Positions 4,441 to 54,800 of a stretch of DNA of 64,000 bases are shown one piece after another. The first letter of the stretch is position 1. Each line of letters begins with the position of its first letter. Under the pieces are notes generated by a model. That model worked only from the letters and a program-made list of their open reading frames with translations, searched no databases and was not told the DNA's origin. Origin of the DNA: Glycera tridactyla (taxonomy: Eukaryota); contig OZ286464.1 in the NCBI GenBank assembly GCA_965644265.1, positions 13,268,001-13,332,000 of the forward strand, written 5' to 3'. Position numbers and translations under genes: made by a program.

Positions 4441-4455
4441 GTTGGTACATTCATC

Positions 4456-7556: not shown

Positions 7557-7561
7557 ATAGC

Positions 7562-29022: not shown

Positions 29023-29047
29023 CTTCATCGTCTGTATGTCAAACACA

Positions 29048-29560: not shown

Positions 29561-29639
29561 AGTTGTTGTTCTAAAAGATGTCAGTCGGTAATGCAATATA
29601 AGAACAATTGGTCACTGCTTACTACAATGAGTATCCAGC

Positions 29640-34720: not shown

Positions 34721-34899
34721 TTTTTGCATATACAGTTGTTTCACCATACACTACAAGCCTATCACAACGGGGACTCGAGCTACACTGCATTATTGAGTCC
34801 CCGTTGTGATAGGCGTCACCTACTACTGCTAATGATCAATGGATACCAGCTGCATAGGTCAGATCCGGCAAAATGTGTGGTGAAGCAATTATTATTCAT

Positions 34900-35960
34900 A
34901 CCAAACACCATCACAAATATGAGCCAATAGATGATAATACTTCCCGTTTCCAGTTCAGGCGGTCAGACAGTTCCGAATTTTCGAGTCTCTGGATACATTT
35001 GGCGGGGTGCTACTGTCTGGGTCAGATGGTGGTGTATCTTGAGCTGATTGATCCTGCTGTATGGGCCGATTTGCGGATAACTTTTCTAGGTTGCTCTTCA
35101 GCATGGCAATTATGCATCCATTCTATTTTAGCTCACTGTTACGTATCTGCGTCGAGAGGCTAAGCATTTCTCCACTCACTTCTGTTAGCAGTGCCTCACG
35201 AATTTTTCTGGTGATTTCTGGTTTTATTTCGACTGTGATCTCTTTCTCAAATTTGGGCTTGATTTTGGATATAATCTCTCGTTTTAGCTTTTCCAATGTA
35301 TCGGTTGGGATCTTGGTCAGCTGAGGGGTGGATGTCGCCTGGGTGCTTTTGTGTGCCGAGACCTCTGTTGCAGTTTAATTGCTCGCAGCGTCATGTCCAG
35401 GCTCCTTCGCTGGCTGGTTTTCCGTTATGCTCGCTTGCAGATCAAGCATATCCCATCCGTCTAGCTCTCAAAGGGGCTTATATCCGTATTATTGTGGATA
35501 GGGGGACTCATTCTCTGAGTCTCTTGGGTTTTGGCCTGGGGAATCGACCTAGCATCTTCATCCTCCTCATCTATGCCCTCTTCCGTACTACTTTCTGCGT
35601 CAGATGCATTTGACAATTCTCCGATCTCACTCAGCTCAATTAGGCTGTCATTATGACAAGGTGGGGGAGGCCATGCGATGCCTCCTCTTTCTCTTTCTTT
35701 CAGACCTCCCTTTTTTAGAGGACTTGGTCTTATCAACAGGTTTGACTGTGGGTGTTTCAGACGTGGTGATGTTCACACCTGCGATTGCGTCGGAATCGGT
35801 GTTAGTGTCGGGATTAGAACCAGCTGTTAGCGTTATTAGCGTTATGCTTCCCTGAGTGCCGCTAAGCTGCGACTCAGGTATTTCTGCGTTCAAATCTTCA
35901 ATCAGATTCTTGACTGGGTCAGTTCTGGGCTCTTCATTTTCATGGTCGTCATTGAGGGAC
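34900..35960 (-). pseudogene. Decayed retroelement ORF1/Gag-like coiled-coil ORF
   Basis: Frameshifted fragments: acidic/Ser-rich N-part, KRKRRHR, and coiled-coil-like EITRKIREALLTEVSGEMLSLSTQIRNSELK; no catalytic motif seen. Confidence 0.4.
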
Positions 35961-36397
35961 GTATTTTCAGTGTGTGTTATACTACTGTGGATCTAATAAC
36001 CGAGGACATTGCATCGTTTTTGTGATCTCCGTTGGAGATCACTATGCTACCACCTCTCTGCTCGAAATGCTTTCTAACTTCGCCGATTCTGACTCTCGAG
36101 GCCAATATAATCAAACGAATCTTGATTGGATCTGTGTACAAGGATCGAATGATCTAATCTGACACAATTTTAAGATGATTTATTGATCCAATGAACGACA
36201 ATCTGAGGAAATGTAGCGATTGCGTAATAGGCATTTCTCCATACATTCGTTTTTGTTGCCGATTACCGCAGCACACTGATCCCGACAGCTTGGATGATGA
36301 TGTGCTGCGCACGCTTCATTCGTCTACCCATGCAAGACATGTGTATGTGAGAGGTGCTGTCTCTGAATTCCGTAAATCACGACGAGCTATGGCATTC

Positions 36398-36441
36398 TCC
36401 CTCTCTGTCTCTCTGTCTCTCTGCCTCTCTGTCTCTCTATA

Positions 36442-36472
<31 letters not shown>

Positions 36473-36487
36473 CTGTCTCTCTCTCTC
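36398..36487. repeat. (CT)n/(CTGT)n microsatellite
   Basis: Direct reading. Confidence 0.95.
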
Positions 36488-36503
36488 GGAGATCTCACTG
36501 CGC

Positions 36504-36656
36504 ACCTGCAGGCTGTTCAGTTGAGCTAACGGAGAAAACGTTTGCCAAATCCTCTACCAAATATTCTCTATCATAAGTGTGTCAAAAAAGAATGGGCACC
36601 CTCTTTCCGTTACGTAACGTTAGCGATTGTTAGCTGCAACTGAACAGCCTGCAGGT
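36504..36656. mobile_element. Small foldback/MITE-like element, ~27 bp inverted repeats
   Basis: ACCTGCAGGCTGTTCAGTTG-AGCTAAC (36504-36530) vs GTTAGCTGCAACTGAACAGCCTGCAGGT (36629-36656); no TSD seen. Confidence 0.6.
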
Positions 36657-36734
36657 CCTTTGGCTGCCTAGCATTGGAAGGGTGCAGGGTTCGAGAACCG
36701 GTCTGACCAGCGTCCATTGAGTTCAAATCCCCCC

Positions 36735-37250
36735 TCGCGCGCCTCTGGCATGACTCACGAAAATCGTCTCGCACATGACATCTCGGCGGGACGGACAGAC
36801 TTGAAGTCGACAAGAAATCGTAAGCACGTATCCTTGCGTATCTTGCATATTCTCGCTGATAACGCTCACATTTGACATGATTTAGTTTGTATCTAGGTGA
36901 CCTCCCCCAGGGGACGCTATTCGTATTTGCCATCCGAGTAACTGACCACAGACCCTTTCCACTATCTGACATCTGACCACCTATGTCTGTGTGTGAATCT
37001 GTGATTGCTGTGTGTTAGCGTACCCCTGACCGCTTCATCACATATCTCGTTCTGCTATTTCCTCTTACAAACTCTATGTGTGTACTCGTAACCCCGTGTA
37101 AATATCATGTATATGTATCCAACACAATAAAGAATTCTGTATTCTGTATTCTGTATTCTGAACTCTGTATCCTTTATTGTCATGATATGTATTGTTGTTG
37201 CAATGTATTACTCACCTGTACTGTATGCATTATTTATGCGGAGCACAACG
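36735..37250 (+). repeat. 5' LTR (contains a 272 bp insertion)
   Basis: CTCGCGC..GGCGGGACGGACAGA..GTAAGCACGTATCC..CTCACATTTGACATGATTTAG is shared with 53277-53510. Confidence 0.8.
36894..37165 (+). mobile_element. 5'-truncated CR1/L2-type LINE or SINE 3' end inserted in the 5' LTR
   Basis: AATAAA followed by an (ATTCTGT)n tail; TSD TGTATC at 36888 and 37166; the 3' LTR shows the empty site. Confidence 0.8.
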
Positions 37251-37252
37251 AA

Positions 37253-37263
37253 TGGTGTTGGAA
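37253..37263 (+). promoter_or_regulatory. Degenerate primer-binding site
   Basis: TGGTGTTGGAA just after the LTR end, resembling TGGTGTCAGAAG-type PBS. Confidence 0.45.
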
Positions 37264-37516
37264 AAAATGTCAGTAGAAAGGTGATAGGTTCCCAGATTCT
37301 GGATTATTCATTGGTCGACCTTTCAAATCATACATACACAAGCTACATGCCTTGTAAATGTTAATAGAAAGGTGATATTTCACTGAAGTGAAATTATTTT
37401 GAGTGAATTGCGCTCATTCCGTGAATTTGTCAAAAAATTCTGGCAGAGCATTCCTGAGATTTGCAGAAATTCCTGTGTTGGTTATGTGATCCCACTGCCG
37501 GTCAAATTTTGCTAGT

Positions 37517-39300
37517 ATGGTTTGTCGTCAGGTTCGCGCAAACATCGTCATGTCGTTCGATATTATCAAGATTTTGTCAGCAACAGCTGAACAACTCCAA
37601 CAGTTACCACAAATTGGTTCACAATGCGCCAAAAAACCATTGGTCCATTTAGAAGATTTGGCCCGTACATCTGAGATGAGTATTCAGAACTGGCGGAGCT
37701 ACAAGAATGAAGGGAGAATATTGTTACCCTTGGAAGAATTGTGGGAATATTATCAGGAAACCAAAACTGAAGATGTGGCTGATTTACATTCCAAATTGGA
37801 AGAATTGCAGCAGTAACATAGACAAGTTTGCAAAGAATTAGATGAGAAATCAGATGCATTGGTTTCTGTTAACGTACGTGCTCAAGAGGCAGAAACTAAT
37901 TTTCAAACTCGTCTTGCAATAGAACTGGCAGATCAGGAGAAAAAATTTGCTCAGGAATTGATTGACTTGCATGCAAAATTCATTCAGGAACAGGCAGTCA
38001 TTGATGATGAACATACAAAACAGATGCAAGTCATGCAGGATGCCTTGGATGAGGCAAGAGACATTTCCGGAATACCAGCTGATTATCAGATGAAAATGAC
38101 ACAACTAAGCTAAAGTTGAATCCATGGAGGCTGATTATCTGAATTTATCTGCTGATGGGGCTGAATTGGATCTTAAGTTTCAAGCATCTATAGCCAGACA
38201 CAAATCGTAACTGGCAAGCAAACAAGATGTGGTGGCCAACTGGCATCAATGAGTGCAGATAGGCAATCTTTGGAAGAAGCTGTGAAGAAGGGATGTAAGT
38301 GGAGAGAGGAGTTAGTCCAGGGATCCCACATGATCACAGTGAGACGCAGAGAAGAGTTGGGGTCTGTCCATGCGGGCTACAACTCTGAAGTAGAACGGTT
38401 GAACATGGAAATTGTAGCATTAAAAGAGGAGTTGCGCGAAAGAGACAGAATCAGAGATAGCACTGATATTTCTGGAAGAGTTGAAGGGATGTTTCGGGAA
38501 ATAATGAAGGCTGTGGGACAACCACCTGCAACATCGAGGAAGACTGAGTCGGTGCAACCTCATCCTGAAGAGTTCAATACAATACAACATATTATTCCAG
38601 ATGATGCTATTAACCATCGCGGAGTACATCCTGTCTCAAATATCATGGAGTCTCAGTACCATGGTGATAGATCAGATTTGCATACTCAAGAATTCACCAT
38701 ACATGGTAGTCCAGCGCCATTCGCGACTCAAGGTGGATACCAGCCAACAGCACAACAGTTTGGACAAGTAGGTGAGTACTTCCCTGGTGGTCATTCATGT
38801 GATAGGGAGGGGAGGCCATTTGGACAGCCAGAGAGGACAGAGTATACTCCATTGGATTATATGAGGACTCATGGTATTGGTAAGAAATCCCATATTGATC
38901 ATCATGAGGCCCATATTTTCCAACATTTACTGAGTTATCATTCGGGGAGACGGAGCAAAGCGATCAAGTACGTCTATGCACAGTCGACATCTTTTCGCCG
39001 AGATTATTGCTGACTGGTGAAAGGTCTAGACAGAAAGTTTGGGGAGGCAGAGCTGCCTAGTATGAAGCACAGACAGCTGCAATCTGCATGTCGAAAAGAA
39101 GAGGAAAGCTTAGAAGACTGGGCCGATCGTGCAGGTCAGTTGGTCCGAGAAAGTTATCGTCATGGTGATGATGATACGATTGAAGAAATGGCAGTGGAGA
39201 CGTTCCTGAAAGGATGCCGTCACAAGCATGCTGTCTTTACAGCTGCTGACAAATCTCCAGAGTTGATATCAGCTGCTGTGAAGTTCGTCAAAACTGCATC
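37517..39300 (+). pseudogene. gag: Gypsy gag 5' part: HhH, coiled coil, capsid domain
   Basis: SATAEQLQQLPQIGSQCAKK..LEDL (HhH); LDRKFG..ESLEDWADRA..F.KG capsid motif; several stops. Confidence 0.8.
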
Positions 39301-39434
39301 AAATACAAATACAAATACAAATAACTTTATTTCAAGTCGTCAATGCAATTAAATACAAATGTGCATCGGTCTTCAGGATGACGACAGAAATCACCACGCA
39401 TAAACTATGATGATGAATAATGTACAGATGGAGT

Positions 39435-42400
39435 TCATGAAGGATGATTGTATGAAAGAGTTGACCCAGTGCGTTTAAAGACATGATACGAGAGCTTTGG
39501 CAAAACTGGTCGGTATCTTGTTTGTCCTAGATGGAGTATTTGATCTAGGTATTTTAGCTCCTTAATAAATGTCTTGAAGCCATTTGTTTCCATGCCCTCT
39601 ACTATTGGGTTTGTGCTTAATAATTTATTCCAACGAATTGCTGAGCAATATCGGAAGTTCTTTTCACTGAAACGATATCTAGTTTTTGGGATATCTAGAA
39701 GTTTTATCTCAGTCAATCGAGTTTCATGACTGTGGGTTGTGTGTTTCAGCTTCACCAATGGATCGCATTTGAAATCTCCATTTAGTATTTTCTTAACATG
39801 GATCAGCTCCTGATCACATCTCCTGTCGAAAAGCATCCTACAGTCCAATTCGTTGTGGAGTTTCCTTGTATCATATCGTTTTGGTTTGCGACCCACACAG
39901 CGCAGCGTCATGTTTTGTAATTTTTGTAGTGTTTGACTGTCTCTCTGAGAGAGACAATTAAAAATCACATTTCCGTAATCGAATATAGGGAGCCCTAGTG
40001 AGCGATATAGCAAGAGAGCTGTTTCAGAGGAAATATACCGTCTTAAACGATGTGACATACCAATTTTGCCAGTGACCTTGGATTGAATGTATTGCACATG
40101 CTTATCAAAACACAAAGTTGTGTCTAACATGATACCTAGATATTTGCATTGTGGTAGTTGTGGTACATCGGTATCCGCACTGCTCAAATTTATGCTTGAA
40201 AACTTCTTTACAATATGCGGCAACCCAAAGGTCATGAATGTAGTCTTCTTCAGGTTTAATGACAATTTGTTCATTTTCATCCATATAATGATTTTTTCCA
40301 AGATGCTTGATAAGCAAAGTCGAAGACATTCTGGTGAGCTACTTGACATACTGACTGCTGTATCATCAGCATATAGAGATGTTGAGATCTTGCTGATATC
40401 CACTTCATGAGGCGAGATATTTCCGGTAATGATATCATCTGTCGCTACTGCTTGGAGTAGGTCAGATTCGGCGCCCCTCAGGAATTCTGGCAGATCATTT
40501 ATGTAAAGCGAGAACAAAAAGGGCCCTAAGATTGATCCCTGAGGGACGCCGCATGTTATAGGCAGTTCTGAAGAAAGAGAAGTGCCTACTTTCGTCACAC
40601 ATCTGCGTTCTGTCAAGTAGCTGCCAAACCAAGCTCTAGATATCTCATCAAATCCATATCTCCTCAGTTTCCCAATTAGGAGCACATGGTCTACTGTGTC
40701 GAAAGCCTTCCTTAAATCCAGAAAGATCGTCCCAGTGGCCCTTCCCCGCTCAGCATTTAGGTAAATATTATCCAAATACTTGAGCAGGCAAGTACCAGTG
40801 GAATGGCCTTTCCGGAAGCCAGACTGCTCCCGACACAGCAGTCCCATGCGCTCTACAAAATCATATACTTACGAATGCACTAGACGCTCAAGTAATTTAC
40901 TTGAAGCAGATAACAAACTCATGGGTCGATAGTTGCTAGGTTGCGAGTGGTCACCCTCCTTAAAAAGAGGGATAATCGTAGCTATCTTCCAAATATCTGG
41001 AAATATACCGTCTTAAACGATGTGACATACCAATTTTGCCAGTGACCTTGGATTGAATGTATTGCACATGCTTATCAAAACACAAAGTTGTGTCTAACAT
41101 GATACCTAGATATTTGCATTGTGGTAGTTGTGGTACATCGGTATCCGCACTGCTCAAATTTATGCTTGAAAACTTCTTTACAATATGCGGCAACCCAAAG
41201 GTCATGAATGTAGTCTTCTTCAGGTTTAATGACAATTTGTTCATTTTCATCCATATAATGATTTTTTCCAAGATGCTTGATAAGCAAAGTCGAAGACATT
41301 CTGGTGAGCTACTTGACATACTGACTGCTGTATCATCAGCATATAGAGATGTTGAGATCTTGCTGATATCCACTTCATGAGGCGAGATATTTCCGGTAAT
41401 GATATCATCTGTCGCTACTGCTTGGAGTAGGTCAGATTCGGCGCCCCTCAGGAATTCTGGCAGATCATTTATGTAAAGCGAGAACAAAAAGGGCCCTAAG
41501 ATTGATCCCTGAGGGACGCCGCATGTTATAGGCAGTTCTGAAGAAAGAGAAGTGCCTACTTTCGTCACACATCTGCGTTCTGTCAAGTAGCTGCCAAACC
41601 AAGCTCTAGATATCTCATCAAATCCATATCTCCTCAGTTTCCCAATTAGGAGCACATGGTCTACTGTGTCGAAAGCCTTCCTTAAATCCAGAAAGATCGT
41701 CCCAGTGGCCCTTCCCCGCTCAGCATTTAGGTAAATATTATCCAAATACTTGAGCAGGCAAGTACCAGTGGAATGGCCTTTCCGGAAGCCAGACTGCTCC
41801 CGACACAGCAGTCCCATGCGCTCTACAAAATCATATACTTACGAATGCACTAGACGCTCAAGTAATTTACTTGAAGCAGATAACAAACTCATGGGTCGAT
41901 AGTTGCTAGGTTGCGAGTGGTCACCCTCCTTAAAAAGAGGGATAATCGTAGCTATCTTCCAAATATCTGGAAAGATACCTTCTTTGATACTGCGGTTGAA
42001 AATCCTGGTTAACAAGGGTGCAATTGTGTCAACACATGATACAAGTATTTTGACTGGAGCTCCATCATCTCTACATGCTTTTGAAAGGTTTTGTGCTAAT
42101 ATAAGCTCCCGTACCTGTTGGTCATGTACAGTGGACAAGGTGAAAGCATCAGTGAAGTGGACCGGCAGGGAGGAGAAGGGACCTTCTACAGTGTTATCTT
42201 TTTGTTCTGATAGTCTACAACCAACATTTGCAAAGAAATCATTTAGCTGATTAGAAATCTCATCAGGAGTCGTGGAATCATTTATCTTATTTATTTCAGT
42301 GGATGATTTGCCATTTTTCCAAAACTCTCTTATTGTCTCCCTCATATTCAGACAGTTTCTCATCCAAATAGTTTTTCTGAAGCGAGCGTTTCAATTTGCT

Positions 42401-43560
42401 TGTTTCTTTCAGCAATCTTTCCTTTTCTAACCTATTTGCTTCAGACAGACAGCACCTAAATTTCTCACTTGCTTTCTCACGTAATCGTACCTCATCCAAA
42501 TAATGGCCTGTCATCCACTCTGGGCATTGCTCTCTTACACGATATCTACGTGGAGGTATCTGCCGGTTCACCACTCCACTGATACATTCAAAAATCAATT
42601 GAGTACATTCATCGACTGACAAAAAATCATTATTCATCACACTCGTCCAATCATAGCTCCGCAGTTGTTCATTTATGGCATCATAATCTGCACGCTTGAA
42701 ATTGCGTAGGTAGATATATTTACTTTTCTTGTTTTGTCTTTCTTTCTTACGGGTCGTGAATATCATTGCATGATCAGAAAGACCTAGGTCCACGACACCC
42801 GCCATGTGGTATTGTTCTTTATTGGATACGTAGATATGATCTATATTTGTTTCACTTTGTGAGGTGACTCTAGTATACTTATTCATCATTTGTGATAGGT
42901 GATTTGCATAGCAAAAATTTTTGACAATAGTCTTATTTGGGGTCTCCTTTGACAGGTCTATATTGTCATCTCCTAAAATAATGAAATCACAGATCCCAAG
43001 TCCGGAGATATCCAGTAGCTTGTTGTCTAATATATCAGAGGCAAATTTCTGGTTTCCTTTTGGAGGACGATACAGTCCGCAGATATATGTCGGGCGAGTG
43101 TGAGGCAGGTGTAGCTTTACCCATATACATTCGACATCATTATTACAAATTGTCCATTCGGGGATGAATTCAACCATAGAATCTGAGCAATAATAGATTA
43201 GAAGTCCTCCTCCGCCTCTTAATCCAGCCCCTCCATCTCGGTCTGAACGGATCATTTTATAACCAGGGATTGATAGTTCGTTCGAAGTAATTGAGGAATT
43301 TAGGAAAGTTTCTCCCAATACTAAGATACTTAAATTACTATCTCTCAGGAGAACTTCGATGTCAATTAGTTTGCAAGTGACACTTCTTATATTCAAGTAT
43401 GCCATACTTATACCATTTAATGCACGCAAATCTTTGGCACAGGTCACCTGGCCAATGGTGTCTGGTTTGATTCTTGGAATCTCTTGTGGGAGGCGGTCAT
43501 TTTTCAGAGGCAGGTTTGGACTTCCATTTCGACAAATGGCGATATTTGCTTGTACATTTG
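39435..43560 (-). pseudogene. LINE ORF2: AP endonuclease plus reverse transcriptase
   Basis: APE: LNIRS, GETFL, YRPP, GDDNID, IDHIY, SDH. RT: YRPMSLL, QSGFR, LDLRKAFDTV, GVPQGSILGP, YADD. One frameshift at ~42.3 kb, a stop at 41839, and the duplication. Confidence 0.95.
40029..41973. repeat. 970 bp tandem duplication inside the RT
   Basis: Apparently identical ORFs at 40087 and 41057; GGAAA microhomology at 40029, 40999 and 41969. Confidence 0.95.
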
Positions 43561-44869
43561 GGTCAAAGTGATGAAAATGAGTATGAGATGATTGTGAATT
43601 GGCTAACTTTGTTAGCTTAACTTATGTAATTAATTATAAACAAAGAACAAAAACAACAAAAAGTTTGTTGCGCAATGGTATGAAGGAGATGTTTTAGACG
43701 AAACAGAACGGACATCAATTTTATATCCACAAATTAGTTATCAAATAGAAGAAAAGTTTCAAAATAAAAGAAGAAGGGGAATATATTTTATGTTTATAGC
43801 AATGGCACCAGATATATTATCTTACATCATTTCAGGATACCAGGCATCCCTGATTTTCCTTGATGATGCTCTTTCTGGCCTTTTAACATATTCTGATTTT
43901 GTCTACTCAGACCATTACTTTGACTTGGGGTCAGGACACCAGATGTCTCCAATTTTCCCTACATCAAGTCGCTTGACCAGTTTACTGTTTCCCTCAATAT
44001 CTCCTCCATAGAAATATCAAAAGAATTTTCATGAGAAATATCGTGCTCTTCATCCGTTTGTTTTGATTTGAAGAGAATCTGATATCATGTCCCTGGTGGT
44101 TGCTTCAGAGACAATCACGATCAAAAAACAAAATCAAATACAAAATTCAATCAGATCGAATCAAATCAGCCACTATCATACGGGCATCTGAAGCATAATT
44201 AAGTTATTATACAAAAGAAATTGTGCAATAAAAGGAGATCCATGCCTGGGGGCCACATCTGTCTCAGCATATCATATCATATGTCAGCTATTTAGACATT
44301 TAGAAATCACGGTATCATTGTCACGGGCATCACTTGAGTCAGAGTGCAACTGCAGGGCTCAGAATATGATTTGAATACTAAAAAGATACAAAACATAAAT
44401 TCTCATTTTTTGTACTCTGCCCACAGATTAGGCTTTCTGCTAACGGGATGTCAAATTCGGGCATTTAACAGCAACAGCAGAGTATGGGCTGAAATTTAAA
44501 CTTGAGAGAGAGCATCCAAACTTACATTTTCCACTCTACATGGATTTCACTAGTATACAACAATTATTAATTTCAGGTATCAGGGGAATAGAGACAAAAA
44601 CCTATGGGAGAAACTTTTAATTGCCCTTGTGCTACTTGATTTGGATGCACAGGTTTGATTTTTGTTCAACACACAAACCGTAATGTGATTTACTTACACA
44701 CTATATGCAACAGGCCCCTAGTTAGTAGGCAGCTCCCAGGTCACTACCTATCAGGACACCAGGTCTCCCTTATTATCCTTGGAGGCAATCACATGGGAGC
44801 TGCCTTCCCTCCAGAAGGTACTGTTCGTTTGATGACCATTTAAGTAATCTTAAACAGTTAAACATAAGT

Positions 44870-46003
44870 AATCATGGTAATCTCAAACTGCAGCTCATCA
44901 ATTGTGAGCAGGTGTGTTTCAGTTTTAGGATCTTTCTTTTCCGATCATACTCTCATCTGTTCCCATTCAAGTACAGAGTCATACTCACATCTGTTCATTC
45001 TCTTCCACGCACCTTACTCATCATTCCATTCAATGTCAGATTCAGTCAGGGCTAGTTCTTCCAATTGTCTAGCTTTCCTTGATTTCTTAATAATACATCC
45101 CTGGTGGAGGTCGATCCAATGGTTCATAGGCCCACCCACCATGTCCAGGATCATTGTGAGGTACCTCTTGTCAGTAAGGTGTTTGGTGTCACTGTTTTGG
45201 AAACCTTTGATGATTTCCCCAATCATGCGCCTTCTGGGTCTAATTTTCTTCTTTACTCTGAATGATGGTGGAGTAGGAGCAGGTTTACAAGTTATAGACT
45301 CATACAGATGTTGGACATACGAGTACCGAATTGTTTCTGGGGAATGTGCATTGCGGTCATTTCTTACAAAACTGTCAAGGCTGACTGCTACTTGTTTGGT
45401 CGCAGGTTTCCAGTATGATCTCCATAGAATTGGAGGACAGTAGAAGACAGAATTTGGTTACAGTCCACGCAGCATCCAGATTGTTGATTGAATTTTCAAA
45501 TATAGGTCAGCTAAGAACTCATGTTGCATTTTAGAGATCCTTTTCTTCTCTAGACGTGGGTCAGTATGAGGCAATCTTTTTACTCTTTGATCAGAAGTGT
45601 CAGCATCATTTGACCCCAAAACAAGGATGACGTAAATGGGTTCAGGGCAGACAGCTTTAATTTTTGCATGAGTGTTTCCATCCCTTCTTGCTCTTATTTT
45701 GGCAATAAGCTCACTCTTTTCACCATGGTCTGGAATGAATCTTCCACGAAATTCATTTTCAAAATTCGACCATGTGCTTCCTCCAATGCCAAAGAAATGC
45801 CATGATCCGATGTATGATTTTACTGTTGGAGACTCACTAGTTTTAATGCAATCACCCATTCTCCTTGCATGGCTTGACCCAGTGACAACTATCGTAGGTT
45901 TACCAATCTGTTCGAGTACAGTGCGGCGTTCGAAGATCGGACAGTTTGTCTCAGCTATGTCCAAGCAAGCTGTTGCTTGTGCATCCGCCTCCCCAATCGT
46001 CAT
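44870..46003 (-). pseudogene. SGNH/GDSL hydrolase (esterase) ORF within the LINE
   Basis: Block I VTGSSH, block II GIGGST, block III LGSND, block V DTKHL; a single frame with stops at 45458 and 45014. Confidence 0.8.
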
Positions 46004-46329
46004 CTGTCAAAAAAGTTAGAATTCATTGCATCACATTTCAGACGGAATTTCAGTTTATGATTTTATTTGTTGTGCTATTTGTGTGGCTCATTCTTAAGCG
46101 CGAGATCCTAGATGTAACTCATAAGTGCACGCAAAAATGTTCATGTATTGTGTCGTATTTACATAGATAGCGATAATACCATGCGCTCGAAATAGGTCAG
46201 GTCACGACCGGTCAGGTCAGGTCATAGGTCAAGTGCCGGAACACTTGTACCTCGCAAGATCACTCAAAATAGTGCCAAAATAGTCAGAAAGTGTTTATAA
46301 TACTGACCGCTGTGTTCGGCGTATGTTCC

Positions 46330-48858
46330 CGTTGAAGTACGTTCACGTCAGATACATTGTGCGTCAGGTTCATGGCTGCTATTCGCCTGTTTCGGAGAGA
46401 TTGTTGTAAGAATTTGAGATAGAAATGGCATCATCTTTAGCCTTGTCTCGCGCATTGAATATTGGGAAACTTCTCTTCGGTCTCCGATAAGCGCCCTCAT
46501 TCGATTCCACCGGAGGTACTGAACTTGCCTGTTGCGATGCACCTACGGTAGATGTCACCTTGTTCGGGTCTACACCTGCGCTGAGTCTGGATTTTTGGGC
46601 TTCCATCCAATTTTGGAAAAAAGCCTGCTCTTTACTACCTGTCGGTTTTGGATGCTGAGTAGACTGTTTTGTAACGGATTGAGATTGATTTGCCGATATG
46701 TTTTGACCATTGACCTTACCATCACCTTTCACCTTGGTCTTGTCCTGACCTGCATGCGACTGGGTTGGGTGGTCAGGTTTTGCTGTTTGGCTTGCGTTGG
46801 ATGTCGAAGCCCCTCTTTTTCTCGAAAGACTCCTCCCTCTGTGTTGTTTTTCACGTCATTTTTCTTTTCTTGGGGCTTGTGCATTAATATCTCCCCTGTT
46901 TCTTCGCCCGATTGTCTTGCCTCCTCTTCTTTCGTATCTTCTTTTGCGTTTTGCTGCAGATCTCAGTCAGTCGCAGCAGCAAAAAGAGGGGGATTTTTTC
47001 ATTCTTTTTGTTTCTTGCCGCAAAGATCTTCCCATCGCGTGTCCACACACTAACCAAAGTACCCGCCGACCAAGCTTCTTTTACGCGCGAGAAAATTTCG
47101 TATTCGCGTGGGGTAAGCTGTTCTCAAAAAATATTTTAGAGCCTTTGATGTTCCCTTTGCAAATTAATATTTGTTTGCGGATATTTGCATGTGCAAATCT
47201 AATTCGTATTGCCCTTGGTTTTCCGTCCTTCGGAAATGGTCCAAATCGTGACACTTGGACGATGTCATCTTTCGTAAGTGCAATGCTTGTCCTTTCATTT
47301 ATCACCAATAGGACTTGATCTATTAGGGTGGTCTCTTTAATATATGGGAGACCATCCAGCATCAGTATGTAGAGGCGGTCATTCTTCTGTAGCTGATCGA
47401 CATTGTTTTCGCTAGAGTCCGCCCTGCCATCTAGTGTTTTTATTGACGATTCGTTTGTCGTGACGCGGGACTCTATCGCAGTAACTTTGTTTATCAGTTT
47501 CACCACTGTGTCTTCCACATTGTCAGGGATCATCTCAGTGTTGCGCGTGTGTAGTTCTGTCTTTATTTGTTCCATTAGATGGTTAGTTTTTAGGTCGGAG
47601 TCCTCGAACTGCTTGTAATGGGAAGTCACTGATTTTATCAGCTCATTCATACCTTCTAGCAAGTCCTTGGAAGGTGTCATGTTCAATTTTGCAGTTTCAA
47701 TTGAGTCATCAACGTAGTTCTCCACTGCATCCTGCCACTCCAGTCTAAAAGCACTCATTTCAGCGGCTACCTTCCGAGGTACATTCTCCGAAAGGTAGTT
47801 TTCACAAGATGTTTTGACTGCTGTCCCTGAGATCTCGTCCATTGATCCTAACTTGTTGTCAATATTATATTTGAGTGCTACCTGTTTGGACTCGATCATT
47901 ATTGGCACATTTTCATCAACATACCGTTTGCAGGCTTTCGTTGCTATGTCGTGCATCACTTCCTTGCTGCCATTGAAGGGTATAATCTCGTTGTTCAGTT
48001 GACCCTTGACCTCACTCGACATTAGCTTTTTAAAGTCATTGGTATGAGTAAAGTTTTTAAACATTTTCTTCATCACATCGATCATTCAGGATCGTCTTCG
48101 AGTTCAACAGGATCATTCGGATTTTCAAGCTGTAGAGTTAGCCACTTGGAAGGGGATGAATCACTCGATAGCCTGGAGCAATGTGGGGTTGAGACGGTTT
48201 GTTTGATTGTTTGACTGTCATGTCTGGTGTCATTGACCTCTTGCGCACTATGTTCCTCGCTTTGTATAGGGAGCTTTTCACTAGTCTCGCTTCCTTGGTC
48301 CAACTCAATATGTTCTATTTCCTGCCTGTCTTCGCTTTTATCCAGAAATGAGCCTTCCATGACCTCCTCTGCGTATTCTATGTCGATTCCTCCCGAGCTT
48401 TCTCCTGCCTCGGGCACACTAGTTATGTTTAGGTTCTCGCTAACGCGACCATCCTCGCTACCTTTACTTGTGACCGATGACGAATCCCTGCTATCAATTT
48501 CTAACGAATCTCCATCCTCTGAGTCACTGACATCGCGTTTCGAATCGGAATCACAATTTGATACTGCTGGCGTGTGTTTGTCAGTTTGTAATGTTTGTAC
48601 AGGGACGTTGAGACTATCACTATCTCCGAAGGGATTGACTTACTGTTTAATTTTGCAAGAATGTTTGTCGTTGCCTACCTCCAGCTCGGTCGACGTGCTC
48701 GTTCCTCCCTCCTCGGCCATTTTGTTTTTCGAACTACGCAGACCTGTTCGTTTGTTATCCTTCGGTATTGCCGCTCCATCAGTAATTCCAGGATCATGCA
48801 TCTACTTCTGTTTATTCTCTAATCCTTTAGCCGTCTTCTTGCTGTTTTGTGATGCCAT
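46330..48858 (-). pseudogene. LINE ORF1: acidic N-terminus, coiled coil, RRM, CTD
   Basis: ATG 48858; DQLQKNDRLYILMLDGLP..SRFG..RAIRIRF (L1-ORF1-type RRM), then VWTRDGKIF; stops and frameshifts. Confidence 0.85.
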
Positions 48859-48945
48859 ATTCTACTTCAGCCTCAAGAAATGAGTCGATGTTCCCGGGAG
48901 CTCTTCGCTACCGCGTCTTACTCCATACGCATGCGCTTCCGCATC

Positions 48946-49355
48946 GGGAAATCAGAAAGCTTTTGGTAATGCAGAACCATTTGCAAGTTGGCAAGTAGGT
49001 TTCCAGGTAGAAGAGTTAAGCACTCCCGGACTCAAACCAAACCTCCCAGTGAAGAGTCAGAAGGAATCAAGAGGTTGTTGGAACAAATGGAAGTTCTCCA
49101 AAGAAGATTGAACAGAGGAGTACCCTGAAGTCATCACCAGGCAAGTGTCTCAGATGTAGAGCCGGCAATCACATGAGTTGGGAATGCCCAAAGCAAAATA
49201 CGACTCCACCTACCAGCTCGGTAAAATCCATTTGTTTCTATTGTCAACAACCGGGATATTTCAACAAGTTTTGTCCGAAGAAACAACAAAACAGAGCACA
49301 ATCCCCATCGCCAAAGAAGTCGGGAAGCCGAGACTCGGGAGGTTCGAGAAACTGA
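48946..49355 (+). pseudogene. gag: Gypsy gag 3' part with two zinc knuckles
   Basis: Continues KTAS|GNQKAFG across the TSD; CLRCRAGNHMSWEC and CFYCQQPGYFNKFC. Confidence 0.85.
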
Positions 49356-49534: not shown

Positions 49535-50452
49535 GGAGTATCTTTGGGACTTGCAATGAGAATAGATGGATGCAGTATTTTCGGTATTGTGGAGAGTTTG
49601 GCGCAGTTGACAGTGGTAAGTACCAAAGTAACACAATGTTATCCATATCATTCAAGATCTGGAAGCAATCCGACTTCAGAATGCACAGTCGAACAGCTAC
49701 ATGAATGGTTGGATAATGCGAGAGGCAACATAGGAAATTGTAGGCAAAACATTCCAGTGGGATGTGGTCATAGCAGATATATCTTATGATATGTTACTTG
49801 GATTAGATTTCGAGCGAACTCACAAGTCAAAGTTGGAACTTGAACGCAATATTGACATTCTGGATGATGATACATTTCAAGCTATACTCAAGCGAGATCC
49901 TGTGGGAATAGTTGCCATGTGAGTCAAGTGACAGCGTCCAGGAAAATTGTGTTCCCATCCAACTCAGTCATGATAGTGCCAGCCTGTCTGCAATTTCCTG
50001 CAAATTGTGACTTTGTGTTTATACCTGATTCAGAGACTTCGCTGCTTTTGGCACATGCCGTCATCTCTGGAGCAACCAGCAAGATTCCTATCGATCTTAT
50101 GAATGTTAATGACCATCATATAACTCTCAGATCTGGTTTTGTAGTAGGACGAGTCTAGGAGATACATGCAAATGACGATGAGCAAACATCAGCGGTGAAT
50201 TCTGTTCATGCGGGAAACATGGCTGCTAGGCAAGGCACTGCGCAAAATACCTCAACGAGGTCAACCTAAATAAAGTCTGAGTTCAGAATGATTCTGAACG
50301 ATCTCCAGTTACTGCTGAATATCAGTCAGAAGTTACTGAACATTTAGAGAAATTGTTTGGAAAATCAACATCCGGACTCAGACCTGAACAATCTCAAGCA
50401 TTGGCTTAAGTATTGTGTGAGTGTGAAGATGTGTTCGCGATCCATGATTTGG
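49535..50452 (+). pseudogene. Degenerate Gypsy aspartic protease and pre-RT linker
   Basis: IDGCSIFGIVESLAQLTVVS (decayed D-T-A-A-x-V-T-V-V-S); the linker ends CEDVFAIHDLG, just where RT normally begins. Confidence 0.6.
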
Positions 50453-50998
50453 GAATTTTCAGCAGTGCAACATCACAAAGCTGTCGCCATCGGAGAGATG
50501 GGTTTCAAGCTGCCCGCTGAAGATTTCTGGCAACAGTCGTGAGTGGTGGTCCGGCAGTTAAAATTGGCAGTCCGCCTGAATTTGCCAATCGTAATCCATT
50601 GCCAGGGAGAGGGCAGTTATGACTCCATCTTGCCTCTGCTTCAATCCCATGTGCCTCCATACATGAAGGTGCTGGTGCTTTCGTCTGGAGGCACCAAGGA
50701 AATCGTCAGACAGTTTAAGATCTACCCAGAGGTGAAGTTTAGTCTAAGGGGCCTTCTGTTCCAGAATGTTCCAGGCCTGGGGTAGGCCGTTCAGTCCGTC
50801 GAGATCGACAGAATCATGCTCGACACCGATGCACCTTTCCTGGCTCTTCCCAGAACTGGCCATCACATGAACCACCCCTGGAATGTCTTCCAAGTGGCTG
50901 AGAAGGGTCGATCAGGTGAAGAACATTTGTTCTTGACTGGTGGTCGAGATGGCCCATCGCAATGTGGCCACGTTTTTGGCATCTTAACTCCACTTTGA
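50453..50998 (+). pseudogene. TatD-family nuclease domain, N-terminally truncated, two nonsense codons
   Basis: AVAIGEMG, QLKLAVRLNLPIVIHC, IMLDTDAPFL, NHPWNV; ORFs 50357, 50543 and 50816 are in one frame. Confidence 0.88.
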
Positions 50999-51847
50999 GG
51001 GACTGGTTCTTGCCAGAAACTCCTGAATAGAATCTCTGGATATTCCAAAACTTTGGTATATTCATTTGAAAGTATGTTGTTTTCTTCCTTGGCTGCCAGA
51101 GAATTTGTATATATTTTGACAAGTTCATTTGTGTATGATTACTTTGATTCGGATCAGGGAAACTGATATTGTGTATCCTGGAGATCGTATTGCTCTTGGA
51201 GTCATTTTGATGATGAGCAGGGAATTTTTCCTAATAATGATCCACTGGAGTCTGCTAGCACGGCAGTTGGGAGCTGGGTTTATTTTGCTGGGCTTTAGTT
51301 TGTCATTTAGTTTTCTGTGCTCTATCATAATGACGTTTGATGATTCCCACCAGTTAGAAATGAAAGTGAGTTAAAGAAAAGAAAAAAAGTTCTGGTTAAT
51401 TTTGTCTGATACCATAGTGAGCGGTGTGATCTAAGCAGTGTGTCTTCAGTTTTATTTATTTCACTGGAGTAGAGGTTCTCCAGATTACTTTCATGTATTG
51501 ACGCAACACAGTTCGAGAGATGGATGAAGATCATTGTATTTTCAATTTTATCTATAGATTCTGAAGTATTCAGAATATTTGAGATTTGGGATCATGATTA
51601 TGATTATCAATATTGTGATGTTTCAGTTTGCTTGGCTGGAATAACTTTTTAAAAGGGGGGGGGGGGAGGGAGTGTGTTAAAATTGGATTCTTTTCAAGAT
51701 GTTCGGTTCTTGCCGGATATCGTGGAGAGAAATAATACCCTCATCCTTACAAAGAGATGTTCGATAATGTATTCTTTCAAAGGACAGTTTCGCTACAAGA
51801 ATCTAGGTGTTTATCTTTCACTGTCACATTCTGCTGTTACAGTTATT

Positions 51848-52110
51848 TCATGGAATTTGCCATGTACTGTCTGATAGGTCAGATGAATAATTCTTTGTAG
51901 TCATGGAATTTGCCATGTACATTCTGGAAGGTCAGATGAATTATTCCTCGTAGCCATGGAATTTGTCATGTACATTTTGAATGGTCAGATAAATTATTCC
52001 TTGTGCTCATGGAATTTGCCATGTACATTCTGAGTGGTCCGAGGAAATATTCGTGGTATTCATGGAATTTGCCATGTATATTTTGAGTGGTCAGGGGAAT
52101 TGTTCCTTGT
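51848..52110 (+). repeat. 53 bp tandem repeat, five copies
   Basis: TCATGGAATTTGCCATGTA-type units start at 51848, 51901, 51954, 52007 and 52060. Confidence 0.92.
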
Positions 52111-53263
52111 TCACAGATGTGATAAAGTCAGTTTATAGTATCTTGGTGATTTTTTCTATTATCAGATTTTCCAGCTCCCTTTGTGAATACAGCTCGTTTT
52201 TGAAATAGGGAAGTTTAGATTTTCGGGCTAGCACCTGTGCTAGATGGGGTCCCAATTCGTATTTCATCTAGAATTTGAGAGATGTGTGTTCGCTCGGGAG
52301 ATGTGCGCTCACACTGTTTGGATTGAAATGTCTCGACAGTATATCTGGATAGGTGTTCCAGGTTGGTTTTAAACTTGCTTTGATATTGTTCAGACTCGGT
52401 CCAGGAATATTGGAGTTTCAAACTTTTTTATCAGTACTAGTAAGTAATTCCAATTGAGAAGATTGGTGGTGAATAAGATGTATTTTCCACTGCGTTGCAT
52501 CGATAATTTGTTTGGCATTTTGGGTAGAAGCACCGATAGTGGTTCTACATACTTAGCAGTTCAGCCTGAGGGAATATATTCATGGATGAAACCTCTCCTG
52601 CTGTGTTCGATTCTGGCCGGAGACGTTTGGAGAGATTTTCAATTCGATTTCATCTGTTGAATGTTCAGTCAGTCAAGAATATCAAGTTGATAGAGAGTGT
52701 TTTTCCCCAAATATTAGTTTGGGGACCTCTTCCTTGGTCCACCAATTGGACTCACAACAAGATTATGGACACCAACTATCATCCAAACCTGGGAATCAAG
52801 AGTTGTTCTCACCAACAGATCGGATCCCAAAGTAGCCTACAGTCCATAATCATGGAAAGAATATAGTCAACAAAAACAGAGTTTCTACGGATTCACAAAT
52901 ATCCTCCCAGCATTGTCAACTGGAGTGCAAGTTGATCGTTGGAATAGCAGAAGCACTACGGATACGGAGAACATCTACTCCACAAATTCACCTGGAGTGC
53001 ACTCAAGCTCACCCAAGTCACTGATAACAAGTCTGGATTGCTGGGAATGTTACAAGACATCACCGTCAACTGGGACCATGAAATTAACAGACTGAGAAGA
53101 CTTCATCTCCGCCAACAGATTTCAAGATTCCAAGTAATGCATCAAAAGGATAGCGCCTTCACCAAACAGGACGTTTGACTAGGTAAGGTGAGAAGACATC
53201 ACCACCGTCAACTGGGATCAACGAAGAGATGTTCCCCAGCAGCAACCATAATGGAGGAGGCTA

Positions 53264-53276
53264 AAACAGGGAGGAG
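53264..53276 (+). promoter_or_regulatory. Polypurine tract
   Basis: AAACAGGGAGGAG directly before the TG start of the 3' LTR. Confidence 0.6.
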
Positions 53277-53510
53277 TGAGGCGACTCGCGCACCTCTGTT
53301 GGGACTCGCACGTGACATCTTGGCGGGACGGACAGAGTTAAAGTGGACAGCGGATGGTAAGCACGTATCCCTGAATATCCTTGCATATCCAAGCAGATAG
53401 CTCTCACATTTGACATGATTTAGTGTGTATCCTTCATTGTCATAATATGTATTGCTGTCGCAATGTGTTACTGACCTGAACTGTATGTATTATTTATGTA
53501 GAGCACGATA
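53277..53510 (+). repeat. 3' LTR
   Basis: Starts TGAGGCGACTCGCGC; aligns to 36735-36893 joined to 37166-37250. Confidence 0.8.
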
Positions 53511-54019
53511 ATTTGTGTAATATCGCTCACCTTACCGGTGATTCCAAGTCAAATCCAGCCCTTCTCAACATGGACTACAAGATTGATTCCTTCTTAGTTT
53601 TCGATTCCTCCATTTTCTTGGACTTATCATCTTTCGTTCGATCCCCTATCCCATCTCTAGGCTTCACTCCAGAAGGCATTTTGGAAGGTTAATTCGTGCC
53701 GCTGTGTCCTGTGTCACTACTCGCTACGCGCCATCATGTGTCGTTTGAATTTCATCACATTGATGATATTTATGATGTAGCCAATGCCGATGCTACAGCC
53801 GAAATGAGGTATTCTGATTCCTCAGCTGAGGCAAGGCGGAAATGAGTTTTTGGGATCTGCTCCTACCGATTTTTAATAGAAGTATATCTAGTAAGAAATT
53901 CCCTCTCCATGGAACTGTGCGATCGTCAACCCCTTACAAAAATGTGGTCCAATTGATGACCCTATCAATTGTAGGCATATGTTAGTCCTCCCGACCTATG
54001 GAAAGCTACTGAAAAGAAT

Positions 54020-54800
54020 AACACATGCCCAGTGCTGTGAATACTTAATCCATACGGTTTGATAAGTAATAGCCAGTCAGGTTTAAGTAGTAACCAGTCC
54101 ACTGTGTCTTGCCTCATTGATTCCTCGCATGCAATATATATGGTAATGGACAGGAGCAAGCGAGTGGGGTGGTTTTTGTCACTGTCAATCATGTGTTTTT
54201 ACTGGACAAGTTTGCTTCCATTGGCTTCCGCCGCATGGCTGTCTCTTGGTTCAGTTCCTACTTGCAGGACAGATACCAAGCTGTAAAGCAGAATTCTGTT
54301 CTCATTGATTTTAGGAATGTTGAATGTGGTGTGCTCCAAAGTTCTCTCATGGGGCCACTTCAATAATTTGACTACAGCAGCCCTGCACAGTAGTATCTAT
54401 GTCTATGCCTATGATACAACAATCCTAGCAACAGGCGCTTCTACTCAAGAAGTGATAGCTAAGCTCTCCAGTGATTTACTCTTGGTTAAGAACTGCCTTG
54501 TCAATAACAAACTGAGCCTTGATATGAAAAAGCCAAATACATGATTTTCGGTACCAATCAGAAAATTGCATCTGTTGAGAATGGTCTATTTCTACCTGAC
54601 TTGGAGAAAGTATCGAATTTTCGTTATTCGGGTGTCAGATTGGACCAAAGTCTCACTTTCAACAACCATGTGGGATATATCTGTCGCAAGGTTTCATCAC
54701 GCCTTTGCATCCATCGTAGACCGCGTTCCATCATTGACAAAAACTCGGCCTTGTATCTGATGAAATCACTCGTATTGCCCTGACACCTTATTCACTAATT
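54020..54800 (+). pseudogene. Decayed L2/CR1 reverse transcriptase fragment
   Basis: TVNHVFLLDKF..WFSSYLQDRYQ..CGVLQSSLMGP, YAYDT (YADD), NNKLSL, FRYSGVRLDQSLTFNNHV. Confidence 0.85.

What the first reader, a model, noticed from the sequence alone, without database searches (positions are those of the whole stretch)
50300..51000. Gypsy LTR retrotransposon carrying a TatD nuclease domain
Seen: between the two LTRs, a TatD core (IGEMG, IVIHC, LDTDAP, NHPWNV) sits in one frame with only two nonsense codons. It follows the pre-RT linker (DVFAIHDLG) directly, and no RT, RNase H or integrase is present. Established: TatD proteins are TIM-barrel 3'-5' exonucleases/AP endonucleases and are not a standard Gypsy domain. 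Inference: an internal deletion joined the linker to a C-terminal TatD cargo of an autonomous family. The nuclease might process cDNA or R-loops, repair uracil/AP sites, or counter host nucleic-acid sensing.
Basis: partly seen in the sequence, partly recalled or inferred. Interest (0 to 1): 0.8.

Follow-up and report, generated by a model that had tools for sequence, protein, structure and literature searches.

The report
Broken retrotransposon carrying TATDN2-like nuclease remnant
A decayed jumping gene in an animal genome holds a broken piece of a nuclease gene from an unnamed, fast-evolving protein family, which suggests that intact relatives carry a borrowed host enzyme for clearing RNA-DNA tangles, a cargo I found no report of.

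Summary
The TatD piece is real (Pfam E 4e-23) but dead. It lacks the N-terminal third and the HxH motif, has lost a metal-ligand His, and carries stops and frame breaks. It sits between a gag/protease-like/linker block and a polypurine tract, with no RT, RNase H or integrase. The LTR pair is only partly seen (228 bp, 82%). It is not a host TATDN fragment. Its closest relatives (41-48% identity) are unnamed, mostly 600-650-aa stand-alone proteins with a new zinc-finger/helical domain plus a full TatD. They form one fast-evolving clade inside TATDN2 (99/97), and 12 of 12 full-length members keep all seven checked active-site residues. Five of the six complete close relatives lie on 10.6-11.3 kb contigs, matching the 10.9-11.6 kb estimated for the undeleted element with one LTR. 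Best reading: an internal deletion derivative of a Gypsy-type family whose separate third ORF is a TATDN2-derived nuclease, probably an R-loop/structured-RNA RNase. That intact relatives lie inside LTR elements is inferred, not seen: their DNA could not be fetched. No paper linking TatD to LTR retrotransposons was found.

The parts
36733..37252 (+). Probable remnant (3' end only) of the 5' LTR, split by a ~270-bp insert (about 36894-37165) that ends in a short tandem tail and is bounded by a repeated hexamer
   Evidence: 228 aligned bases, 82% identical to 53284-53512, K2P 0.20. LTR status is inferred from orientation and position.
37253..37270 (+). PBS-like site starting TGG
   Evidence: Sequence. 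Not matched to any tRNA. Weak similarity to the right repeat copy runs a few bases into it, so it is uncertain.
37550..39304 (+). gag, 5' part: HhH-like N-terminus, low-complexity middle region, capsid-like C-terminal part; stops and at least one frame break
   Evidence: Pfam HHH_3 E 0.014, below cut-off. ESM Atlas: 18 of 30 hits in Retrotrans_gag clusters, best 0.94, for 39014-39304. No Pfam gag match.
39305..48948 (-). Nested non-LTR (LINE) insertion(s) splitting gag: RT, endonuclease, ORF1-like frames, internal 970-bp duplication
   Evidence: RVT_1 E 1e-28 and Exo_endo_phos E 2e-4. Duplication 40029-41984. Short tandem tail and 4-bp junction repeat.
48949..49350 (+). gag, 3' part, with two zinc-knuckle-like motifs (49146-49274; the second has lost its His)
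   Evidence: Translation. Pfam zinc-knuckle matches E 0.015-0.2, below cut-off.
49550..49900 (+). Degenerate retropepsin-like protease, frameshifted
   Evidence: Motif resemblance by eye and recall only. No Pfam match.
49916..50476 (+). Post-protease region and pre-RT linker, ending at the deletion junction (~50465-50477)
   Evidence: Translation. The linker identity rests on recalled Gypsy pol motifs; no Pfam match.
50471..50987 (+). C-terminal two-thirds of a TATDN2-derived TatD, pseudogenised: stops at 50540 and 50783, one-codon deletion, frame break near 50905, further stop at 50934; HxH absent, one His ligand changed
50988..51650 (+). Non-coding 3' region; no RT/RNase H/integrase remnant; A-rich tract at 51373-51389
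51651..51672 (+). Polypurine tract, followed directly by TG
   Evidence: Only purine run of 18 nt or more on the + strand of the window.
51673..53512 (+). Probable 3' LTR (~1.8 kb) with a 53-bp tandem repeat at 51849-52113; only its last ~230 bp has a partner on the left
   Evidence: Extent inferred; later insertions inside it are not excluded.

Best explanation
WHAT IT IS. The locus is an old, internally deleted and LINE-interrupted copy of a Gypsy-type LTR retrotransposon. The intact family most likely ran LTR-gag-pol-ORF3-PPT-LTR. ORF3 is a separate ~600-650-aa protein: an acidic N-terminus, a C2H2-like zinc finger with a helical domain, then a complete class II TatD barrel derived from animal TATDN2. 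One deletion of roughly 4.3-5.0 kb removed RT, RNase H, integrase and the first ~460 codons of ORF3, joining the pre-RT linker to the middle of the barrel. The copy then decayed neutrally.

SHOWN: the TatD remnant, its clade, its truncation, the intact active sites of relatives, the PPT, and the absence of RT/RH/IN. INFERRED: the Gypsy assignment, the ORF3 position, and the deletion.

HOW IT LIKELY WORKS (intact family; inferred, about 0.35-0.4 given the above). [quoted passage not shown] The new zinc-finger/helical domain would replace TATDN2's disordered substrate-binding N-terminus. This would clear RNA:DNA three-strand structures at the element's transcribed copies or during strand-displacement reverse transcription, helping the element replicate and limiting damage to germ cells. 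This copy is inactive.
For: Closest relatives among 1.84 billion representatives are P0002-P0004 (E 1e-34 to 4e-29, 41-48% identity). After them come three fragments (P0005-P0007); all other hits score E>=1.5e-11. Two more, P0154 and P0155, came from a profile search.

All 17 rows of the family group (window, 13 longer proteins, 3 fragments) form one clade (99/97). It lies inside a 32-row group with named scallop and Hydra TATDN2 (100/99), and the window row sits in a 9-row subclade (100/98). 12 of 12 full-length members keep H,H,E,H,H,E,D at 33% mean identity. The AlphaFold model of P0155 is confident throughout, including the N-terminal domain (pLDDT 94.5, pTM 0.92), and its best PDB matches are TatD/YcfH.

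The six complete close relatives lie on contigs of 11284, 10653, 10880, 10641, 11006 and 8616 bp. The size budget for the undeleted element with one LTR is 10.9-11.6 kb (using an assumed 3.0-3.6 kb for RT-RH-IN). Two stops in 144 codons fit neutral decay at the ~10% per copy implied by the repeat pair (expected 1.2-1.4).

Precedent for a nuclease ORF3: DEDDy exonucleases in rotifer LTR elements (PMC5408684 passages). TATDN2 activity: PMC10711561 abstract and one results section.
Against: No intact element was seen. The relatives are unnamed records whose DNA I could not fetch, and a search for gag relatives on the same contigs found nothing (weak, since the same word-based tool also missed the known TatD relatives).

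The contig-length match is circumstantial: 1 of 6 is 8.6 kb, more distant family members lie on 1.5-9.5 kb contigs, and the pol size is assumed. Only one locus links this family to a retroelement. The Gypsy parts have no Pfam match above cut-off, the gag fold search was uninformative, and only ~230 bp of LTR is paired.

Family branches are long (flags four), so the deeper grouping may be affected by long-branch attraction. No TATDN1 or TATDN3 reference was in the tree. Human TATDN2 had minimal activity on plain RNA:DNA duplexes, so a simple second-RNase-H role is not supported, and the family has diverged far from TATDN2.
Confidence: 0.7

Rival explanations
1. The Zn-finger+TatD family belongs to another mobile element or is a lineage-specific host gene family. 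A piece of it was joined to this Gypsy copy once, by template switching or by insertion plus deletion.
For: No family member was seen in an LTR context except this broken one. Some host-like TATDN2 proteins also appear as single ORFs on Mb-scale contigs, so lack of introns is not diagnostic. Enzymatic ORF3s are exchanged between different retroelement types in rotifers. There is an A-rich tract ~390 bp after the TatD end.
Against: It needs two events at the same place. The piece is in sense orientation exactly where an ORF3 would lie, just before the 3' region and PPT. Five of six close relatives lie on contigs matching the size budget. Its decay matches the element's age.
Confidence: 0.2
2. 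A one-off captured fragment or retrocopy of the host's own TATDN1/2/3 gene.
Against: Identity is 41-47% to the family versus 27-30% to named TATDN2. The piece is nested at 100/98 in the family subclade. A tree forcing it with the 13 TATDN2-like rows is rejected, p-AU 0.003 (part of that cost may come from forcing those 13 rows together, as they are not one clade in the free tree).
Confidence: 0.05
3. The flanking repeat is not an LTR pair, and the region is a pile-up of unrelated repeat fragments or a mis-assembly.
For: Only 228 bp pair up; 1.6 kb of the supposed LTR has no partner; similarity runs slightly past the supposed PBS; no target-site duplication could be tested.
Against: Repeat end, gag-like frame, zinc knuckles, protease-like region, linker, PPT+TG and repeat end are colinear on one strand. 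The gag-like sequence appears to continue across the LINE insertion.
Confidence: 0.05
4. Same anatomy as the best explanation, different job. ORF3 is a counter-defence or host-manipulating nuclease (degrading small-RNA precursors or by-product nucleic acids that trigger surveillance), or a DNA 3' exonuclease/AP endonuclease like TATDN1, TATDN3 and bacterial TatD.
For: TATDN1, TATDN3 and the E. coli paralogues have AP-endonuclease and 3'-exonuclease activity (PMC10085689 passages). The family evolves fast outside the active site (33% versus 46% mean identity among TATDN2-like rows), as conflict genes often do (general knowledge). An orchid Gypsy lineage carries an active AlkB demethylase proposed to counter surveillance (PMC9289625 abstract).
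Against: The parent clade is TATDN2, which had little DNase and very weak AP activity. Fast evolution is also normal for retroelement genes.
Confidence: 0.4

Closest known systems
Bdelloid rotifer LTR retrotransposons (Juno, Vesta) with a DEDDy 3'-5' exonuclease ORF3 (PMC5408684; passages read)
   Same: Invertebrate LTR elements with a separate third ORF encoding a 3'-5' nuclease whose catalytic residues are kept; their ORFs cluster apart from host homologues; function untested.
   Different: RNase D-like DEDDy fold there, TIM-barrel class II TatD here with a new zinc-finger/helical domain. 'TatD' does not occur in that paper. The ORF3 position is shown there and inferred here.
Animal TATDN2 (PMC10711561 abstract and one results section; PMC10085689 passages)
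   Same: HxH-type TatD barrel at the C-terminus of a long protein, with the same metal ligands; the family nests among TATDN2 rows.
   Different: The family has a conserved folded Zn-finger/helical domain that did not match the named scallop or Hydra TATDN2, much longer branches, and many divergent members.
Orchid Gypsy elements with an AlkB/2-ODD ORF (PMC9289625; abstract and Introduction)
   Same: A host nucleic-acid enzyme fixed as an extra ORF in a Gypsy lineage.
   Different: RNA demethylase, plant, recent capture, activity shown. Here a nuclease in animals, deeply diverged, activity untested.
Tat/Ogre-type elements with additional RNase H (PMC4408406, PMC10508981; search listing and start of abstract only)
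   Same: Gypsy elements that gained an extra enzyme acting on RNA paired with DNA.
   Different: An RNase H fold within pol. TATDN2 prefers R-loops over plain hybrids, so the job need not be the same.

Membership tests
Ty3/Gypsy LTR retrotransposon | Paired long terminal direct repeats | tested here: inconclusive
   Only 228 bp pair, at 82%; the rest of the left LTR is missing.
Ty3/Gypsy LTR retrotransposon | Polypurine tract abutting a TG-starting 3' LTR | tested here: met
   51651-51672, the only + strand purine run of 18 nt or more, followed by TG.
Ty3/Gypsy LTR retrotransposon | Primer-binding site complementary to a tRNA 3' end | tested here: inconclusive
   TGG-starting motif at 37253; no tRNA set to compare.
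Ty3/Gypsy LTR retrotransposon | Gag with capsid and zinc knuckles | tested here: inconclusive
   Atlas: 18 of 30 hits Retrotrans_gag, score 0.94, but only 118-126 shared features and the top row is another family. Zinc knuckles are below Pfam cut-off and there is no Pfam gag match. Fold search uninformative.
Ty3/Gypsy LTR retrotransposon | pol order protease-RT-RNase H-integrase | tested here: not met
   RT, RNase H and integrase are absent from this copy. It is therefore filed as a deletion derivative of Gypsy type, not as an autonomous member; the superfamily rests on recalled resemblance of gag, protease and linker.
Ty3/Gypsy LTR retrotransposon | Target-site duplication | not testable with these tools
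   The 5' end of the element is missing in the window.
TatD class II (HxH) nucleases | TatD TIM-barrel domain | tested here: met
   Pfam PF01026 for the window piece and relatives. The model of P0155 matches TatD/YcfH structures at E 5e-16.
TatD class II (HxH) nucleases | HxH motif and E/H/H/D metal ligands, in intact relatives | tested here: met
   12 of 12 full-length family proteins carry all seven residues checked. A 13th, P0062, was cut by my slice; its sequence shows only the first His of the motif.
TatD class II (HxH) nucleases | HxH motif and E/H/H/D metal ligands, in the window copy | tested here: not met
   HxH is deleted, one His is changed to Leu, and the Glu two residues before the last Asp is changed to Asp. 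Pseudogene.
TatD class II (HxH) nucleases | Metal-dependent nuclease activity | not testable with these tools
   Needs a biochemical assay.
TATDN2 clade | Groups with named TATDN2 rather than bacterial TatD/YcfH | tested here: met
   32-row group at 100/99. No named TATDN1/TATDN3 rows were in the tree; by profile, human TATDN3 (84 bits) and TATDN1 (45 bits) score below YcfH (111 bits).
Host TATDN2 orthologue or its retrocopy | Closer to host TATDN2 than to any other clade | tested here: not met
   27-30% versus 41-47% identity; p-AU 0.003. The source species' own gene was not available.
LTR retrotransposons with a nuclease ORF3 (rotifer Juno/Vesta type) | Separate nuclease ORF downstream of pol inside the LTRs | tested here: inconclusive
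   The position fits in this broken copy; the context of intact relatives could not be fetched.
LTR retrotransposons with a nuclease ORF3 (rotifer Juno/Vesta type) | DEDDy exonuclease domain | tested here: not met
   The domain is TatD.

The most novel reading that the evidence does not exclude
An old, widespread lineage of invertebrate Gypsy retrotransposons took over TATDN2, a germ-line genome-stability nuclease, gave it a new zinc-finger/helical targeting domain, and has kept it catalytically intact as a third ORF. The element uses it to resolve R-loops or trim structured RNA during its own cycle. This would be a TIM-barrel nuclease cargo in LTR elements and a direct link between R-loop control and retrotransposon success.
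Probability: 0.3. Interest if true: 0.8.

Novelty: new variant of a known kind. Interest (0 to 1): 0.6.

Why it matters
Stable gains of host enzymes by LTR retrotransposons are rare and point to what limits them in the cell (extra RNase H, AlkB, DEDDy exonuclease). A TATDN2-derived cargo would implicate R-loops or structured-RNA ends, and TATDN2 protects primordial germ cells in medaka (PMC12709183 title and passages), the lineage in which such elements must replicate. It also predicts that some gene models annotated as TATDN2-like in invertebrates are retrotransposon genes. It supplies a compact, confidently modelled natural TATDN2-clade protein (P0155, 447 aa) for structure and assay; no chain named TATDN2 was among the 17 PDB matches to the family profile. 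The window copy itself is a dead fossil; its value is as the pointer to the family.

Tried and rejected
HOMOLOGUE AND CONTEXT SEARCHES
- Word-based search with the TatD piece among longer proteins: 436 candidates, none scored. This was a false negative, since one search found the relatives.
- The same tool with the gag capsid piece, to find partners on the same contigs: 166 candidates, none scored.
- GTDB genome scan with the family alignment: 397 of 550 stretches were TatD relatives, and the best 80 kept were all prokaryotic records at 25-31% identity. No family member and no context were found.
- Phage collection: 18 records; the 10 listed are 26-30% identical over the TatD barrel only. BFVD: one giant-virus match at 21% identity. 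A bacterial, phage or viral source is not supported.

DOMAIN AND FOLD CHECKS
- Atlas look-up of the family's N-terminal domain: best score 0.80, C2H2-like leads only.
- Single-sequence fold of the gag piece: pLDDT 56, best Z 6.5, uninformative.
- PDB sequence searches of gag pieces: nothing meaningful. The N-terminal Zn/helical domain was not folded or searched on its own, so no claim is made that its fold is new.
- Rfam and tRNA scans of the window: none.
- Sensitive search for the rest of the 5' LTR in 1-48900: only the two blocks of the 230-bp repeat; next best E 0.17.

REJECTED IDEAS
- TatD fused to Pol in relatives. The 2975-aa hit is a scallop TATDN2 isoform, and the CCHC+TatD hits group with TATDN2, several on Mb-scale contigs. 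Fused forms above ~1134 aa were not searched with the family profile.
- dN/dS could not be computed, as no DNA of relatives was available.

LITERATURE
- TatD with Gypsy, retrotransposon or LTR: searches returned 1, 6, 21 and 3 papers. By title and abstract start, none concerns TatD in a transposon.
- Broader searches listed only the top 30 of 553, 30 of 120 and 25 of 792 papers.
- 'TatD' had 0 occurrences in PMC5408684, PMC6431247 and PMC8556966. PMC13524379 and PMC10294476 had no 'nuclease' hits.
- Repbase Reports, Dfam, most subscription journals and all supplements were not seen, and could already list such elements.
- Metagenome and viral contig collections stayed unchecked.
Full report
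1. OBSERVATION. It matches Pfam TatD_DNase at E 4.2e-23 over profile positions 74-228 of 253, and solved TatD/YcfH proteins at E 3.5e-11. Two stops interrupt the 144 matching codons (50540, 50783), against 7 and 5 in the other frames. Three details need correction. The linker motif DVFAIHDLG is in a different frame, with a break a few codons before the junction. The last TatD helix is in a third frame with another stop (50904-50987). The domain begins abruptly at about 50465-50471, so the HxH-bearing first third is missing. No RT, RNase H or integrase remnant was detected in the 12 read-through frames scanned or between TatD and the purine tract.

2. THE HOST ELEMENT. The surrounding element spans about 36.7-53.5 kb. 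A gag-like frame starts near 37550 with a weak HhH-like motif (Pfam E 0.014, below cut-off). Its capsid-like part gave 18 of 30 ESM Atlas hits in Retrotrans_gag clusters (best 0.94), though no Pfam gag match, and a fold search was uninformative. At 39305-48948 it is interrupted by minus-strand LINE sequence (RVT_1, endonuclease). It resumes with two zinc-knuckle-like motifs, a degenerate protease-like region and a linker; these last two assignments rest on recalled Gypsy motifs, not on a tool match. Downstream of TatD lie 660 non-coding bases, then the only + strand purine run of 18 nt or more in the window, directly followed by TG (51651-51672). No full LTR pair exists. The one flanking direct repeat is 36733-37252 versus 53284-53512 (228 aligned bases, 82%, K2P 0.20), ending ~300 bp before gag on the left and 1.84 kb after the purine tract on the right. 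I read these as the ends of long LTRs, the left one truncated. That is an inference, and weak similarity running a few bases into the supposed PBS counts against it.

3. WHAT THE TATD PIECE IS. A full HMMER scan of 1.84 billion representatives put three unnamed 630-648-aa proteins far ahead of everything else (E 1.7e-34 to 3.9e-29, 41-48% identity). Three short fragments followed; all other hits scored E>=1.5e-11. A profile search added P0154 and P0155. These proteins start with Met and, apart from the shorter P0155, have an acidic N-terminus. A conserved CxxC..H..H / CxxC zinc-finger-like and helical domain follows, and a complete TatD ends the protein. A profile of that N-terminal domain also matched more distant hits (P0158, P0161, P0098, P0060, P0062, P0111, P0182, P0184 and cluster mates) but not named scallop or Hydra TATDN2. 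A 60-row tree was built from the TatD domains. It left out the long unnamed vertebrate-like hits and most bacterial hits, and had no named TATDN1 or TATDN3. All 17 family rows form one clade (99/97), inside a group with the TATDN2 rows (100/99), and the window row is in a 9-row subclade (100/98). Four branches in or beside the family are flagged as long. The window piece is 41-47% identical to its five closest full-length relatives and 27-30% to named TATDN2. Forcing it with the 13 TATDN2-like rows is rejected at p-AU 0.003, with the caveat that those rows are not a clade in the free tree. Twelve of 12 full-length members keep all seven residues checked (HxH, E, H, H, E, D; ligand roles from PMC10085689 passages) at only 33% mean identity. 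The window copy lacks HxH and has one His changed. An AlphaFold model of P0155 is confident over the whole chain (pLDDT 94.5, pTM 0.92), and its barrel matches TatD structures. No family member turned up among the 80 best GTDB loci, the phage records or BFVD.

4. IS THE FAMILY A RETROTRANSPOSON CARGO? I could not read the DNA around the relatives, and a gag search for partners found nothing (the same tool also missed the known TatD relatives). The indirect evidence is threefold. First, position: the piece is in sense orientation between the pre-RT region and the 3' region/PPT, where a third ORF would lie. Second, size: the parts still present, plus the missing ~430-475 codons of the family ORF, plus an assumed 3.0-3.6 kb for RT-RH-IN, give 10.9-11.6 kb with one LTR. 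Five of the six complete close relatives lie on contigs of 10.6-11.3 kb and the sixth on 8.6 kb, as expected for an element's RNA or a collapsed repeat contig. More distant members lie on 1.5-9.5 kb contigs, which says nothing either way. Third, age: two stops are what neutral decay at ~10% would give (expected 1.2-1.4), so the piece was probably open when the copy inserted. At the junction, the residues QH can be read both as the end of the linker (recalled motif) and as part of the family's TatD (P0154 has QH at the same place). That would fit a microhomology-guided deletion, though the few codons before it also resemble the TatD sequence weakly, so the exact breakpoint is uncertain. I put the cargo reading at 0.7, a one-off join from another element or host family at 0.2, a host TATDN fragment at 0.05, and a non-LTR pile-up at 0.05.

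5. MECHANISM. This copy is inactive. For the intact family, conserved metal ligands imply a working two-metal nuclease (inference). [quoted passage not shown] It has minimal activity on plain RNA:DNA duplexes, little on DNA, no uracil glycosylase and only very weak AP-endonuclease activity, and it needs its N-terminal region to bind R-loops (PMC10711561 abstract and one results section). I therefore favour an R-loop/structured-RNA RNase in which the new zinc-finger/helical domain supplies substrate binding. It would clear three-strand RNA:DNA structures at transcribed copies or during strand-displacement synthesis (about 0.35-0.4 given the cargo reading). Counter-defence or DNA-repair-type roles together take most of the remainder. 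None of this is tested.

6. COMPARISON AND NOVELTY. LTR elements with captured enzymes are known: DEDDy exonuclease and GDSL ORF3s in rotifers (PMC5408684 passages), AlkB in orchid Gypsy elements (PMC9289625 abstract and Introduction), many domains in planarian Burro (PMC6431247 passages), and additional RNase H in Tat elements (listing only). It works like those, but it is not a member of the DEDDy-ORF3 group. As a copy lacking RT-RH-IN it is filed only as a Gypsy-type deletion derivative. Searches for TatD with Gypsy, retrotransposon or LTR terms showed no paper on a TatD cargo, judged from listings. Repbase, Dfam, subscription journals and supplements were not seen, and metagenome and viral contig collections stayed unchecked.

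7. VERDICT. Observation partly confirmed; interpretation partly supported and sharpened: a probable separate ORF3 from a previously unnamed TATDN2-derived family. New variant of a known kind. Interest 0.6. One look at the relatives' contigs would settle the main claim.

Noticed in passing
window 4369-29560 (+): Polinton/Maverick-like element with largely open frames. Integrase (rve), A32-like ATPase, dUTPase and a deoxynucleoside kinase matched Pfam. A 1183-aa frame at 13147-16698 has a polymerase-B-like YTDTDS motif and an inserted endonuclease VII-like domain, and 27069-28523 and 25399-26346 look like major and minor capsid proteins by eye. The nucleotide-metabolism cargo (dUTPase plus dNK) may merit a look. 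No terminal inverted repeat was found between 1-13000 and 29001-37000.
   Followed up: partly
window 37565-37636 (+): Weak helix-hairpin-helix (ComEA-like HHH_3, E 0.014) at the very start of the gag-like frame, an unusual gag N-terminus if real.
   Followed up: partly
window 39305-48948 (-): Nested LINE block with an RT carrying a near-exact 970-bp tandem duplication (40029-41984, 99.8%; possibly an assembly artefact), an endonuclease, and at least two ORF1-like frames, one esterase-like by eye at 45014-46006.
   Followed up: partly
window 29600-31040, 31560-32540, 33050-34650: Three clusters of complex tandem repeats (units of about 125/173 bp, about 200 bp, and about 620 bp) just past the Polinton-like block.
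   Followed up: no
window 52680-53260 (+): ORF-like remnant inside the supposed 3' LTR with a short internal repeat; no Pfam match. It could be a later insertion, which would make the true LTR shorter.
   Followed up: partly
window 54190-54790 (+): Degenerate LINE-type RT fragment by eye; no Pfam match.
   Followed up: partly
window 36500-36660: Short inverted repeat immediately upstream of the LTR remnant, perhaps the insertion that truncated it (seen by eye).
   Followed up: no
proteins P0010, P0018, P0019, P0036, P0045, P0069, P0108: TATDN2-like proteins with 2-8 CCHC zinc knuckles N-terminal to TatD, several on Mb-scale contigs. This is a second, independent pairing of TATDN2 with zinc-binding modules.
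   Followed up: partly
window 8650-8785: Assembly gap of 136 N inside the Polinton-like region.
   Followed up: no
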